Below are positions 6,760-60,980 of a stretch of DNA of 64,000 nucleotides, piece after piece. The position numbers and the translations under genes were made by a program. Under the pieces are notes generated by a model. It did not search any database, had not been told where the DNA came from, and worked only from the letters and a program-made list of their open reading frames with translations. The stretch's first letter is position 1. Each line of letters opens with the position of its first letter. The stretch is from assembly GCA_951406725.2 (NCBI GenBank), contig OX597824.1, positions 50,344,001 to 50,408,000 of the forward strand, given 5' to 3'. Origin of the DNA: Octopus vulgaris (taxonomy: Eukaryota).

Positions 6760-7012
6760 TTATTTACATTATTTACATTTGACGCATATTTGTCCTCATC
6801 TTGTTTGCTGCTAACACATCGTTTCGGCTAGCCTTCATCAGGTGTCTTGGTGGTTTTACTCGAAGGAGATATTTGCGAAGTGTTGTATTATTCTTGAATA
6901 CTGTCCTGATGTCATATGGGTCGCATATCTTTTGTATCTTTTCGGAGAGGCCTTTCACATAGGGTAGACAGACTGTGGACAGTTTATTGGCCCCATCCTC
7001 TCTCTTCTTCAT
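6760..7012 (-). mobile_element. Penelope-like element remnant: RT-to-GIY-YIG linker peptide fused to a pLTR-like segment
   Basis: VCLPYVKGLSEKIQKICDPYDIRTVFKNNTTLRKYLLRVKPP resembles the PLE thumb/linker region; hammerhead motif immediately downstream. Confidence 0.75.
6813..6846 (-). ncRNA. Minimal type I hammerhead ribozyme motif (cleavage-site U mutated)
   Basis: Minus strand gacac-CTGATGA-a-ggc-ta-gcc-GAAA-cg-AT-gtgtt; stem I gacac/gtgtt. Confidence 0.65.
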
Positions 7013-7034
7013 AAAGCTTGTAATTCGGGAAATG

Positions 7035-7208
7035 GGGACAGTCGATTATATCGATCTCAGTGCGTAACTGGTACACAATTTATCGCCTCCGAATGGATGG
7101 AAACCAAAGTCGATCCTCGGTGGAATTTGAACTCAGGACGTAGCGACGGGCGAAATACTGCTAATCACTTCGTCCAGCGTGCTAACAAGTCTGCCAGCTC
7201 ACCGCCTT
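7035..7208 (-). mobile_element. SINE family C copy
   Basis: Ends ...ctgccagctcaccgcct, the reverse complement of the tRNA-like head aggcggcgagctggcag. Confidence 0.82.
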
Positions 7209-10119
7209 AAAATAATAATAATGATAATAATAATAATGTTTTCTAATAATGACACACGATAAAACATTTTATAAGAGGATACATTAGATTGAATTAATTG
7301 CTATGCGTGACTCGTGCTTACTTTGTTGATTCCTAAAAAGAAAAAAAAAAGAAGTGCAAAGTTGAAAGAACTGAAGACAAAACTAAATGCTGAACTATTT
7401 CGTTTTTGTCACTGAATATCTTGCAACTACATAAAAGCTTAGAAGACATATACATGCACAATATATCCATGAGAAATAAATGTTTATACATCTATATAAT
7501 CCATGTGTTACTGTGAGGGTATCAACCGTTTCACTTTGTTGGATAAGAATTGTCAATCAATGCATGTAAAACAAGATTGATATCAATAGTGTTATTGAGA
7601 AATGTGAATTACAAAGTTGCTTTTATTCGCAAAAGCATTAGTAACGAAAATGAATGTGAAAGTGGTACGAGTGGAGGACTTGAAACCATGCCGAATATTC
7701 CTATCATTTACTCTATGGCACTTAACATACATAGATACTGACATACGAAGATACTAATACACAAATACAAAAACATACATACGCACATGCGCACGCGTAC
7801 ACGAACATGTGTATATGTGTGTGTATGTATATACATTTGTATATATATATATATGTAATTGATACATATATATATATATAATATATGTGTGTGTATATAT
7901 ATGTTTGCATACATGCATACACACACATATATATATAAACACAAATACATAAATGAGACACTTTAAATTTGTAATACACACGCACATATATGTAGTTGCA
8001 TATACGCACGTTTACTCGCATGCATAGATATATATGCATTTGCATAAACACACCCATAAACTCATTGCATTCTGCATCAGGTTACTTACCAGCATACAAA
8101 TACTCGAACTATATAGTCATACAGTGAATACATCAGCAAAATGAATAAAGCAAAAGATGAAGACGATGAAATGAGTCTTCTTTGTGAATCGTCTGGAAAT
8201 GTCCGGAAACGACCTGAAAGTACAATCGTCTTTACATGTTTTCGGTCATAACTGAGGAAACAGAGAAATGTGAAATTACATAAAGCCACACTCTGTGAAG
8301 GGGTAAATGAAGCCAAGTAAAAGATAACGCAGTGAATAATAGATGGCGAAAGTTGTTTGGAAACATAAATTGAAAAGGAATTCTGGCTAAAAGAACTGGA
8401 AAATAAGATAAAGATTTTTCGGGTGTAAAACCGAAGAATATTTATTTGAAGTCGGTGTGGTGAATGTTGGTTGACCAAGAATTTTGAATTTGTCATGTTG
8501 TACTTACTATCTTTGAAAGGCATTGACTTCCTGAATATCACGAATCAACTGCACTGCACAGCTCCCAAATCTGCTTCGCACATTATGTGATAACTCGTTA
8601 ATTTTTACCTTATACTATTACTTCGAAGTCACTGTCAACCAAAGTACATATGTGTATATCTATGTATATGCATATTCATATGCGAACATACATACATACT
8701 TACATATATATATTTATTTATTTATTCATATATACATACATAATATTATTACAAATTTGGGATTTTACCAATAGAACTGCAACTCCTATTTCAGGATAAC
8801 CCTATTATATGGAATACTCATAGAAAGTTATATCCAATAAAATAATATAAGCATTTAAAAACCTACTATAAAATAAAATTATTTGAAAAAATATTTGAAA
8901 AAATCTATATAACTTGCCTGCTATTAGTCTGTGGGGAAAGAAGATATTTTTAATTAATGCTACACGGGTTTCTGTGCTGGTGTGGAGTTTATAAAGGCTA
9001 TGCCTAATACATAAATCAACCAGTGCGTCCCTAGGCTATTTATCTTATTGTTATTATTATTAACGGATCACAGTTAAAAATTCATGTCATATCAAATAGA
9101 AAAATAAGAATATGAATACAATTATAATAAAATAAAAATATAATAAAAATATATAAATTACAAATATATTTTTAAAGAAATTAAAAAATAAAAACAATTA
9201 AACACTTAAAATTACAATACCGATATATATAGAAAATGCTAAACCTAAGAAACCCTCAATGACTATATTATACACACATCAAATCATACGGCTTATCTAT
9301 ATAAATATTACGGAAATTAATAATTTTGTGTAAGATTTACCCCTATCTATACAAGTATAAAATACCATTTTTTATGTCTTCTACTAAAAAACCCTTTAAG
9401 GCAGTGCTCCAGCATGGCCGCAGTCAACTGACTGAAACAAGTAAAAGAATAAAAGATATATTCCACCCAATGAAGCGCCTAAACACTGCTGTGGCTGAAA
9501 AATATTCTACTATATAATAATTATCAAGAATGATCTATAATAGTATATGAATATAGACTCAACAACTGAAAGCTGGTGAGCAGTGACATCCCTCATCCTC
9601 ATATCATATCCTTCTTGTATTAATCTTATGCAAAAAGGAGTTCCGCTTGTGTATTCAGCCCTGGAATATACCCTACTGCAGGATATCATGCAGTAGTCAA
9701 CGACATAAAAGCACTTAAATGCATGTTACGAGGTTTTCACCCGAATTATACTATATACATATCTATCTATCTATCTATCTATCTATCTATCTATCTATCT
9801 ATCTATCTATCTATCTATCTATCTATCTATCTATCTGTCTATCTGTCTATCTGTCTGTCTGTCTGTCCTTCTGTCATAATACGAGAACATTTTGTATGTA
9901 TATGCGTGTAAATAGATAATAGGTATATATGTGTGTATATATGCTTATATGTATATTCATATTTATATGAATATATTTGTTTGTATGTATGTATGCATGT
10001 ATGCATATAATATCGCTGACGGGCACAGTTACTCCGTTGCCGCCAAAACCAGAACCACTGCTACAAGAACAAGAGACGCAATATCTGTAGAGACAATAAC
10101 CTCACTGTGTATAGTATCA

Positions 10120-10842
10120 CATCACCACTACCGCCGCCGCCGCCGCCGCCACCACCACCACCACCACCACCACCACCACAACTACCACCACCACCACCAA
10201 CAACAACTACAGTAGGTGGTCCAAACTGCTAATAGTGATACATTAAAAATGAAGCTATTTGTTTCAAGCCTCATTGACCATTCTGTAACATTTGCTGTAT
10301 GTCCCACGTACTGAAACAGTAGTAGTAGTGGTAGTAGTAGTGGTGGTAGTAGTAGTAGAAGTAGTAGTAGTAGTAGTAGTAGTAGTAGTAGTAGTAGTAA
10401 TAGTAGTAGTAGTCGTCGTCGTGGTGGTGATGCTGGTGGTGGAGCTAGTGTTGTCAGCGGCGTTAGTAGTAGCAGTAGTATTGAGATTTGTTGTAATTGC
10501 TGTAGTGATGGTGGTGGAGGATGTGATGTTGATGGTATTAGTAGTTGTTGGTGGTGCATGATGGTAGTAGTAATGGTGGTGGTGGTGGGATGGCTGCTGT
10601 AGTACTAGCAGTCATGGTAGTAGTGGTGGTAGCGGCAGTAGTCGCAGTGGTGGTAATGATCGTTGTAGTGGTGATGTTGATGATTGTAGTAGTGGTAGTA
10701 ACGGCAATAGTGGCAGAGGAGGCTGTGGTCATGATCGAAGTGATGGGGATGGCAGTGGTTGTTGTAACGGTGGTGTTAGTGGTGGTGGCTATGGTGACGG
10801 TAGGGACGGTGGTAGTGGTGGTAATAGTAGTAGTGATAATAA
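10120..10842. repeat. Cryptic trinucleotide low-complexity region (CAC/CGC/GTA/GTG)
   Basis: Directly visible; the poly-V/T/H ORFs are artefacts. Confidence 0.9.
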
Positions 10843-11149
10843 TCCGAAGCGTTTTTGTACAAAATTTCATAAAAAAATATCCATGTTTCTTAAAGTTATG
10901 AGGAAAGAAATTCGTTCGGATACGTATGTGTAGGTAAGCTTCAGCTAACTCCGGCCGGTATATCATTGCGCATGCGTCATAGGAAGCCCTTAGCAAACGT
11001 ATTATTGTAAATAAAATTCGTAGATACATGCATACATATAAGTATGTATATATCTCTCCTTTTCTCTCTCCCTCTCTTTATATATATATATATATATATA
11101 TATATATATATATATATATATATACAATTTAATAAATAAAACATATGCA

Positions 11150-59825: not shown

Positions 59826-59954
59826 TCCTCCTCCTTCTTCTTCTTCTTCTTCTTCTTCTTCTTCTTCTTCTTCTTCTTCTTCTTCTTCTTCTTCTTCTTC
59901 TTCTTCTTCTTCTTCTTCTTCTTCTTCTTCTTCTTCTTCTTCTTCTTCTTCTTC
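59826..59954. repeat. (TTC)n microsatellite
   Basis: About 40 perfect units. Confidence 0.97.
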
Positions 59955-60509
59955 ATGTTTGTGGGTGTGCGAGCGCGCATGTGTATGTTTGGACATGTGC
60001 GCTTACGCGATTACTATGAACATTTTTACTCCCTTACTTTTACTCCGTCTCCTTACTTAGCTATCATTCTAATAGCTCTTTTGTCTTAATAACACAGTAA
60101 TTTCCCTTTGTTTAGCGGTCATTTTAAGAAAAGTACTCATCTTAAGAAAAGAGTTATCAAGGCATTTACAGTACAGGGTTTTGTTGTTTCTGTTTGTTCT
60201 AACTAATACTTCCTAAATACCTTTCAATATATGAAAAAATACTAAATATTGTGCAATTATCCTTACAATACTAGAATAGATTGAACCAACAAAGTGCTGT
60301 AGAGAAAAGTTACAAATATAACGAACGAATATAAATTTAGAAATAAATAAATGACTATGGATGTTACGTCAAAACGAATATGATTTTTGAATTTGGTGGT
60401 AAAAAATGCATATATGAACATTAAAAAATACAGATAAACAAAACGTGTTATATTGTGTAATACATATATAAATATATATATTAAATTACCTTTATCAAGT
60501 GGAAAAATT

Positions 60510-60592
60510 TGTCAGCAAGTGGGATTCGAACCCATATATCTTGATATGACTCTGGCTAAGACTTTACCATGAAGTTAAACTGCCTGCTGACA
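60510..60592 (-). pseudogene. tRNA-like pseudogene/repeat (3' half resembles tRNA-Leu)
   Basis: Minus strand gggttcgaatcccacttgctgaca T-arm and acceptor; terminal tgtcagca/tgctgaca pairing; D and anticodon arms not canonical. Confidence 0.5.
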
Positions 60593-60789
60593 ACATCCGA
60601 TTTTAGATGATTTAGAAGAGTAATTTCCCCAAAATTTTTGTCGGTCTTACAGTATTTCTGCAATCGAAAATAAATTATCATCTTACTTGTAGTTACATAC
60701 ACACATTTCGCGCTTTTAAAAAAACAAAAAAAGTCCTAGTTTACTTTTATATATATATATATATCTATATCTATATATATATATATATA

Positions 60790-60980
60790 TACTTTATTAC
60801 AAAAGCAACAAAAATATCACAAAAACTGTTACTCAGAGATTCCGGGCGAACGGAACGAGAAACTCTGAGTTACAGTTTTTGTGATATTTTTGTTGCTTTA
60901 TTAATAAAGCATATTACTCTACCTCCGGTATTCAAGTACTATATTTTCCACCTCGTTTTGCATTTATGTGCTTACTCTAG
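60790..60980 (+). mobile_element. Short inverted-repeat element beside (TA)n with the 3' half of a hammerhead
   Basis: Arms ~60790-60839 and ~60862-60910; GAAA-ctc-t-gag-TT-acag. Confidence 0.7.

What the first reader, a model, noticed from the sequence alone, without database searches (positions are those of the whole stretch)
6813..60980. About ten different minimal-hammerhead retroelement families colonising microsatellites in one 64-kb window
Seen: type I hammerhead layouts with pairing stems at 6813(-), 16816(+), 25367(+), 26292(+), 26913(-)/27316/27878(+), 48997(-), 53418(-) and 57737(-)/57902(+), with weaker ones at 11514, 29985, 47147 and 60860. Stems differ in sequence while the core is kept, and nearly all abut (TA)n or (AAT)n. 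Known: Penelope-like element pLTRs and metazoan non-LTR retrozymes carry such minimal type I hammerheads. Inference: this genome, probably octopus, hosts a diverse and possibly poorly catalogued radiation of non-autonomous ribozyme retroelements mobilised by PLE RT/GIY-YIG and targeted to microsatellites.
Basis: partly seen in the sequence, partly recalled or inferred. Interest (0 to 1): 0.82.

Follow-up and report, generated by a model that had tools for sequence, protein, structure and literature searches.

The report
Hammerhead-bearing Penelope retroelement ends
The window holds about a dozen unrelated short repeats with hammerhead (self-cutting RNA) motifs, which are likely the leftover ends and small derivatives of Penelope-like jumping genes, a pattern already described in other animals but not yet catalogued in what is probably an octopus.

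Summary
The motifs are real. A type I hammerhead descriptor finds 12 hits (10 loci) against 0.8 in shuffles. Five more sites are decayed copies, and 29985 is not supported. Helix III is near-palindromic at 9 of 10 loci, which the descriptor did not ask for. The elements show partial tandems, inverted 5' copies and tails, as Penelope-like elements (PLEs) do. One hammerhead is fused to a PLE RT-endonuclease linker, and a second PLE fragment with a zinc-finger linker lies in the window. The 25367 motif is the known U3-A8 core variant; its 362-nt unit is very abundant in runs with three organism labels, with no listed variant in the core. A 562-nt unit carries two hammerheads in tandem and fits the retrozyme definition. 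Microsatellite adjacency is only modestly enriched (p about 0.03). Heterogeneous hammerhead families, palindromic helix III, opposite-strand pairs and (TA)n bias are all published for PLEs, and PLEs cover 6.8% of the Octopus vulgaris genome, close to the 8.6% seen here. Verdict: new members of a known kind. What remains open is the very high density, which Rfam misses entirely.

The parts
25081..25637 (+). Element A: 362-nt unit as a 1.5-fold partial tandem, ending in (TA)n; no ORF match
   Evidence: 195-nt direct repeat at 99.5%; same tandem joint in 4 of 4 runs and (TA)n loose ends at the same end in run X1
25349..25426 (+). Type I hammerhead with U3-A8 core (25373-25379), 6-bp helix I plus long distal helix, 4-bp helix II, palindromic helix III; predicted cut after C25402
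   Evidence: fold z -4.1; no listed variant at 25371-25410
26627..28130 (.). Element C: 562-nt unit, 1.46 units on + and 1.23 units inverted, 98-100% identical, (TA)n on both sides, 83-nt extension on one arm
27872..27932 (+). Hammerhead of element C (canonical core, U-U at the base of helix II, 8-nt palindromic helix III); same motif at 27310-27370(+) and 26910-26970(-)
   Evidence: predicted cut sites 27363 and 27925, 562 nt apart
26116..26589 (+). Element B: hammerhead at 26284-26356 (canonical core, best score) between inverted arms of about 140 nt, with an 85-95 nt extension on one side, then (TA)n
6812..7027 (-). PLE RT-endonuclease linker remnant (6848-7027) fused directly to a decayed hammerhead (6812-6848); GIY-YIG domain missing
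   Evidence: 57-76% identity to proteins with RVT_1, PF26215 and GIY-YIG
16551..17017 (+). Decayed hammerhead at 16808-16866 (C3 missing) between inverted arms, ending in (TA)35
   Evidence: fails the descriptor
29146..29194 (+).
48878..49156 (-). Short element between (TAA)n runs; hammerhead at 48995-49043 with A9 changed to C
48500..48586 (-).
53311..53590 (-). Element with a minimal hammerhead at 53416-53455 (U4C core, 4-nt palindromic helix III), ending in (TA)n
57712..58127 (.). Head-to-head pair of long-helix-II hammerheads: 57733-57826(-) passes the descriptor, 57897-57990(+) is decayed
47026..47263 (.). Head-to-head inverted pair with two decayed hammerheads joined a few bases upstream of the cores
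   Evidence: fails the descriptor
60791..60909 (+). Inverted repeat with a decayed hammerhead at 60836-60876, truncated at the inversion point
   Evidence: fails the descriptor
11422..11600 (-). Weak minimal hammerhead at 11512-11553 (U3 core, 3-bp helix I)
   Evidence: score 10
12230..12690 (-). Second PLE protein remnant with a Cys-rich linker (Neptune-like by recalled description); stops, a frameshift and loss of the GIY-YIG core; no hammerhead next to it
   Evidence: 74 relatives at E<=0.001; 2 of 15 scanned show a GIY-YIG hit

Best explanation
The window carries about a dozen unrelated short repeats with type I hammerhead motifs, which are likely the 3' ends (pseudo-LTRs) of Penelope-like retrotransposons plus a few small non-coding derivatives, likely inserted by the PLE reverse transcriptase and GIY-YIG endonuclease at AT-rich sites. 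Shown: motifs above chance, palindromic helix III, tandem and inverted layouts, two PLE protein remnants, and for one family a fixed 3' end at (TA)n. Inferred steps: (1) tandem loci are transcribed into multimeric RNA; (2) PLE protein nicks AT-rich DNA and primes reverse transcription from an internal 3' start site, which gives fixed ends and optional tails; (3) copying usually stops after 200-800 nt, or folds back, leaving a short end with the hammerhead and often an inverted copy; (4) two neighbouring hammerheads would pair through their palindromic helix III and cut the multimer into units, so the 362- and 562-nt units could cycle as retrozyme-like RNAs; (5) most copies then decay neutrally.
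For: 12 hits vs 0.78 in shuffles. Near-palindromic helix III at 9 of 10 loci vs 93 of 234 shuffled hits, p=0.0016. Local inverted or tandem structure at 7 of 13 loci. Hammerhead at 6841 fused to a PLE linker, 76% identical to an RT-endonuclease protein. Second PLE remnant. Family A: thousands of contigs laid, tandem joint in 4 of 4 runs, (TA)n loose ends, stem variants mostly keep pairing. Element span 8.6% of the window vs 6.83% PLE in O. vulgaris. Layouts match PMC8557442, PMC3846280 and PMC4209133; AT-rich nicking and internal RT start shown in vitro in PMC11167929.
Against: Only 1 of 13 hammerhead elements is tied to PLE coding sequence. No Rfam hammerhead model scores in the window or in four sub-regions. 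Only the 25373 motif folds clearly better than shuffles as a hammerhead. Microsatellite enrichment is modest and depends on the threshold. No genome was available, so family-level conservation was checked for one family only. In PMC11167929 hammerhead cleavage was not needed for insertion, and in the 2026 preprint 8 of 9 retrozyme dimers did not cleave.
Confidence: 0.75

Rival explanations
1. Most families are self-standing non-autonomous retrozymes: 300-600 nt units that are transcribed, self-cleave, circularise and are copied from RNA circles by PLE enzymes, with no autonomous parent sharing their sequence.
For: Units A (362 nt, GC 0.42) and C (562 nt, GC 0.34) have no PLE protein match, fold as circles far better than 40 shuffles each (z -7.6 and -6.3), and C has two complete hammerheads one unit apart with arms ending at different points of the unit. 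A has canonical helix sizes like retrozyme hammerheads.
Against: Only 2 of 13 loci show a tandem unit. 6841 is attached to PLE coding sequence. The tandem joint of A is also in runs marked DNA, so it shows no RNA circle. The 2026 preprint finds vertebrate retrozymes to be pLTR derivatives anyway.
Confidence: 0.17
2. The elements are mobilised or amplified by something other than PLE proteins (LINE machinery, fold-back DNA transposons, or satellite-type unequal exchange) and carry hammerheads as passengers.
For: Other repeats in the window also end in (TA)n. LINE-type RT remnants are present. Several elements look like fold-back repeats.
Against: Inverted arms are asymmetric, with the hammerhead and tail on one side, as described for PLEs. 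No poly(A) or LINE-like tail was seen at the 13 junctions printed. Copies are dispersed, not arrayed.
Confidence: 0.05
3. The motifs are chance matches in AT-rich, repeat-rich DNA.
For: About 0.8 hits per window are expected by chance, one shuffle reached 7, and 40401 is probably such a hit. Most motifs do not fold better than shuffles. The descriptor was tuned after seeing the data.
Against: Four independent loci with the canonical core vs 0.06 expected; palindromic helix III; conserved core in a very abundant family; the 29153 and 49035 relatives keep helix I with different base pairs.
Confidence: 0.03

Closest known systems
Minimal and variant type I hammerheads in pseudo-LTRs of metazoan Penelope-like elements (Cervera & de la Pena 2014, PMC4209133)
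   Same: Many heterogeneous families per genome, mostly single motifs from truncated PLEs; palindromic helix III; pairs on opposite strands 100-700 bp apart; U3-A8 core variant; longer helix II.
   Different: Host not among those named in the parts read. Density here is 60-200 loci per Mb if the window is typical, far above published counts made with stricter descriptors. Two families have 52-60 nt helix II arms. The U3-A8 core sits in a canonical-size frame.
Endonuclease-bearing PLE insertions (Penelope/Poseidon, Neptune; Craig et al. 2021 PMC8557442; Arkhipova et al. PMC3846280; Frangieh et al. 2024 PMC11167929)
   Same: 5' truncation, partial tandems, inverted 5' copy, optional tail, (TA)n or AT-rich targets, RT-linker-GIY-YIG protein remnants.
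   Different: One-sided extensions here are 83-95 nt rather than 30-40 nt. 12 of 13 elements have no coding remnant.
Metazoan non-LTR retrozymes (Cervera & de la Pena 2020, PMC7229834; Li, Clavereau & Pollet, bioRxiv 10.64898/2026.07.22.740005)
   Same: Non-coding tandem units under 45% GC with one type I hammerhead per unit; mussel units are 350-390 bp like unit A; a U-U pair at the base of helix II occurs in axolotl as in unit C.
   Different: Here only 1.2-1.5 units per arm, with inversions and (TA)n flanks; unit C is longer than the 170-400 nt given for invertebrates; circular RNA and cleavage are not shown; the preprint sampled no mollusc.

Membership tests
Type I hammerhead ribozyme | Core C3-A9, G12-A14, A15.1-U16.1, H17 with three helices in type I order | tested here: met
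   12 hits, 6 with the canonical core, others with U3-A8, U3, C4 or one other change; U3-A8 and U4C are known natural variants (PMC3088659 passages)
Type I hammerhead ribozyme | Match to an Rfam hammerhead model | tested here: not met
   0 matches at gathering score; none at E<=10 in four sub-regions
Type I hammerhead ribozyme | Self-cleavage at H17 | not testable with these tools
   needs an in vitro assay
PLE-type hammerheads | Palindromic helix III allowing a dimeric active fold | tested here: met
   9 of 10 loci within one edit of a palindrome; self-duplex of -7 to -10 kcal/mol for 5 of 11 motifs, no stable duplex for 3
PLE-type hammerheads | Core conserved across the family, not just one copy | tested here: inconclusive
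   met for family A (40 variant rows shown, 6 hidden); not testable for the other families
Endonuclease-bearing Penelope-like elements | RT plus GIY-YIG ORF joined to the repeat | tested here: inconclusive
   linker remnant joined to the 6841 motif; no match for the other 12 elements with 83 PLE-related proteins
Endonuclease-bearing Penelope-like elements | Partial tandem forming pseudo-LTRs | tested here: met
   elements A and C
Endonuclease-bearing Penelope-like elements | Inverted 5'-truncated copy | tested here: met
   16821, 26298, element C, 47147, 57818/57905, 60843
Endonuclease-bearing Penelope-like elements | Optional 30-40 nt tail on one arm | tested here: inconclusive
   one-sided extensions exist but are 83 nt (C) and about 85-95 nt (B)
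Endonuclease-bearing Penelope-like elements | Insertion bias for (TA)n or AT-rich DNA | tested here: inconclusive
   p=0.025-0.03 at 300-400 nt, not significant at 200 nt; family A copies end in (TA)n in 34 contigs of run X1
Endonuclease-bearing Penelope-like elements | Identity with annotated PLE families (Repbase, Dfam, O. vulgaris library) | not testable with these tools
   libraries and genome not held
Non-LTR retrozyme | At least two consecutive units each with a complete type I hammerhead | tested here: met
   element C only (27320, 27882); element A has one hammerhead at this locus; the other 11 loci do not meet it
Non-LTR retrozyme | Non-coding unit of a few hundred nt, GC under 45%, highly self-paired | tested here: met
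   units A and C
Non-LTR retrozyme | Expressed as unit-length circular RNA | not testable with these tools
   only contigs available; no holder on record as RNA

The most novel reading that the evidence does not exclude
Octopus genomes are the densest hammerhead reservoir yet seen in animals (some 10^5 loci, 60-200 per Mb), invisible to Rfam, and include true retrozymes: a 362-nt family of about 10^4 copies with a fixed U3-A8 core in a canonical frame and a young 562-nt family, both giving abundant circular RNAs, plus families with a new long-helix-II architecture.
Probability: 0.3. Interest if true: 0.55.

Novelty: new member of a known kind. Interest (0 to 1): 0.3.

Why it matters
As found, it extends a known PLE and retrozyme pattern to a cephalopod-like genome and shows that standard Rfam annotation misses these ribozymes. 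If the density holds genome-wide, one genome would supply hundreds of natural hammerhead families for asking why PLEs keep a ribozyme that is dispensable for insertion in vitro. Hammerhead motifs would also give a way to classify part of the 15% 'unknown' repeats in octopus, and young tandem units are ready candidates for ribozyme-made circular RNAs in a heavily studied transcriptome.

Tried and rejected
Rfam: no hammerhead match; the E-value scan of the whole window showed only the top 150 of 499 rows, nearly all microRNA models on microsatellites. 29985: rejected, no GAAA box. 40401: probably chance. The repeat at 11344(-), 41868(-) and 52530(+) keeps the first core half in three copies but has no GAAA box after its hairpin; 52530 passed only the looser first scan, so it is not counted. 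My first reading of 25367 as a core with insertions was replaced by the U3-A8 reading. The family A motif was not found in metagenome or viral contigs, so no autonomous partner could be traced. No RNA holder listed; run X14 is only guessed to be RNA, so expression is left open. The zinc-linker fragment gave nothing in the word-index search, Pfam or the Atlas and was placed only by the full HMMER search. Free folding supports a hammerhead-like fold clearly only for 25373; the low z of 60843 comes from its inverted arms. Look-ups of earlier findings by place and sequence were empty.
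Full report
Setting. The window is 36% GC and 22.6% short tandem repeat. No genome is held for it. The SINE-like repeats look like those of Octopus to me; that is recalled and was not tested by any search. One stretch is held by 20 of 24 listed runs, under four coded organism labels and nine studies.

Checking the motifs. I scanned both strands for core, helix II, GAAA, helix III ending in UH, and helix I. The first scan gave 7 hits with the strict core against 0.12 in 60 block-wise dinucleotide shuffles, and 12 with one core change against 1.4. 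After reading that U3-A8 is a natural core variant, I added it and narrowed the helix lengths. This second scan gave 12 hits at 10 loci against 0.78+-1.02 in 300 shuffles that left microsatellites in place (max 7), and 6 canonical-core hits at 4 loci against 0.06. Three hits are copies within one insertion and are not independent. 6813, 16816, 57902, 47147 and 60860 are decayed but recognisable, and 29985 is not supported. 29153 and 48578 are new; 40401 is probably chance.

A feature not asked for. Helix III is within one edit of a palindrome at 9 of 10 loci, against 93 of 234 shuffled hits (p=0.0016). The 29153 and 49035 motifs share helix II and keep three base pairs of helix I, the first of them changed on both sides; they are the only related pair among 13 element stretches. 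Against the reading: only the 25373 motif folds clearly better than shuffles as a hammerhead (z -4.1), and Rfam finds nothing at gathering score or in four sub-regions at E<=10.

Layout. Seven of 13 loci have local tandem or inverted structure. Element A is a 362-nt unit in partial tandem, its two repeats 99.5% identical. Element C is a 562-nt unit present as 1.46 units on + and 1.23 units inverted, at 98-100% identity, with (TA)n on both sides; its two + hammerheads are exactly one unit apart and one arm runs 83 nt further than the other. 16821, 26298, 47147, 57818/57905 and 60843 have inverted 5' copies. These are the layouts described for PLE insertions in PMC8557442 (passages) and PMC3846280 (passages).

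Protein remnants. 6848-7027(-) is 57-76% identical to proteins with RVT_1, PF26215 or GIY-YIG hits. In the relatives the GIY-YIG domain follows; here a decayed hammerhead follows at once, so the copy is internally deleted. 12230-12690(-) matches 74 representatives; 2 of 15 scanned show a GIY-YIG hit, and the longer ones carry RT-like sequence and a Cys-rich linker. I call it Neptune-like from the description in PMC8557442, without a tree. With all 83 proteins as queries only these two places match, so 12 of 13 hammerhead elements have no coding link.

Family A in other samples. Contigs of 4 of the 24 listed runs (three organism labels) were laid on 24893-25442: 6681, 4401, 1344 and 94 records. 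Among 40 variant rows shown (6 hidden) none falls at 25371-25410, so the U3-A8 core, helix II and helix III appear to be the family state. Of four substitutions in helix I, A25354G, G25370A and C25411T keep a pair on the predicted fold; G25362A breaks one unless it goes with C25411T, which the tables cannot tell. The tandem joint is in 4 of 4 runs, including one marked DNA, so it is no evidence of an RNA circle. In run X1, 34 contigs continue into (TA)n at the unit's end. Summed depth over the motif is about 5,000-28,000 times that of the lone contigs listed for three runs (one high-depth row of X2 left out); the tool warns that this is no copy number, so I read it only as 'very abundant'. 24893-25080 is a separate abundant repeat that also ends in (TA)n.

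Microsatellites. A (TA)n or (AAT)n run lies within 300 nt downstream of 8 of 13 loci against 30% of random positions (p=0.025); at 200 nt 3 of 13 (p=0.56); at 400 nt 9 of 13 (p=0.03); on either side at 300 nt 10 of 13 (p=0.07). Eight loci end directly in such a run, but I picked those ends by eye. Other repeats in the window end in (TA)n too. The bias is plausible but weaker than stated.

Mechanism. Shown elsewhere: a purified PLE protein nicks AT-rich DNA and starts reverse transcription inside the RNA, which explains fixed ends and tails; its hammerhead is protein-assisted and not needed for insertion (PMC11167929, parts 1-2 of 4). PLE hammerheads with palindromic helix III cleave weakly and as dimers (PMC4209133, parts 1-2 of 4). 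Inferred here: the elements are 3' ends left by truncated or folded-back target-primed reverse transcription; units A and C, which fold as circles far better than 40 shuffles each (z -7.6, -6.3), may be cut from multimers by paired hammerheads and cycle as retrozymes. No cleavage, expression or mobility was tested.

Comparison. PMC4209133 already reports thousands of heterogeneous motifs per genome in several families, mostly single, opposite-strand pairs and the U3-A8 variant. PMC3088659 (passages) covers U3-A8, U4C and a U-U pair at the base of helix II. PMC7229834 (passages and sections 14, 17) describes retrozymes in mussel, coral and axolotl (126,247 motifs). The 2026 preprint (parts 1-3 of 5; supplements not seen) derives retrozymes from PLE ends and sampled no mollusc. 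PMC13282606 (parts 1-2 of 3 and its supplement) gives 190 PLE families covering 6.83% of O. vulgaris and has no 'ribozyme' or 'hammerhead' in the supplement; its consensus library was not seen. The 13 stretches here cover 8.6% of the window (boundaries by eye), so their number is about what that annotation predicts, if the host is a similar octopus. PMC6962438 (passages) lists 235 Rfam hammerhead loci in giant squid; PMC8967140 (passages) notes Penelope expansion in coleoids. Searches for hammerhead ribozyme + octopus (5 papers, 4 listed), hammerhead + ribozyme + cephalopod (7, 4 listed) and retrozyme with mollusc terms (15 listed, none holding 'retrozyme') showed no survey of octopus hammerheads; the library lacks most subscription papers, Repbase and Dfam.

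Verdict. Real motifs, known kind. The count of 4-13 loci per 64 kb would scale to 60-200 per Mb, well above published counts, but it rests on one selected window and a looser descriptor. An earlier AI report on another genome (e1-7882047) reached a similar verdict; it is unchecked and is not used as support. Interest 0.3.

Noticed in passing
window 11278-11384, 41750-41890, 52492-52600: Three diverged copies of a repeat that keep the first half of the hammerhead core followed by a hairpin, with a GAAA box upstream instead of downstream in two of them; resembles the 'half core' noted for some PLEs.
   Followed up: partly
window 24893-25080 and 26495-26589: A separate abundant repeat ending in (TA)n abuts element A; it shares a motif of about 20 nt with the one-sided extension of element B.
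   Followed up: partly
window 5336-6740 (+): Decayed LINE remnant (RVT_1 and zf-RVT hits; R4/Dong-like by recall), tail to tail with the PLE fragment at 6812-7027.
   Followed up: partly
window 6848-7027 and 12230-12690: Both PLE remnants keep the linker and lack the GIY-YIG core.
   Followed up: partly
window 48500-48586 and 57733-57990: Hammerheads with 52-60 nt helix II arms; the two 577xx copies seem to keep an inner hairpin with different letters.
   Followed up: partly
window 61841-61989 and 5906-6012: Further fold-back repeats; the first abuts (TA)n and shows no hammerhead core.
   Followed up: no
window 56744-56989 / 61452-61720; 47429-47665 / 49304-49543; 34761-34862 / 59709-59807: Three other dispersed repeat pairs without a hammerhead hit; may be more PLE ends.
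   Followed up: no
window 32850-33090 and 34290-34550: Short translated pieces that resemble mariner transposase (recalled, not tested).
   Followed up: no
window 30460-31700: A 42% GC stretch with moderately long frames, possibly a decayed coding element.
   Followed up: no
window, about 25 places (e.g. 17089-17540, 23714-24037, 36657-37079, 42677-43098): Several abundant SINE-like families, often interrupted by or ending in (TA)n.
   Followed up: no
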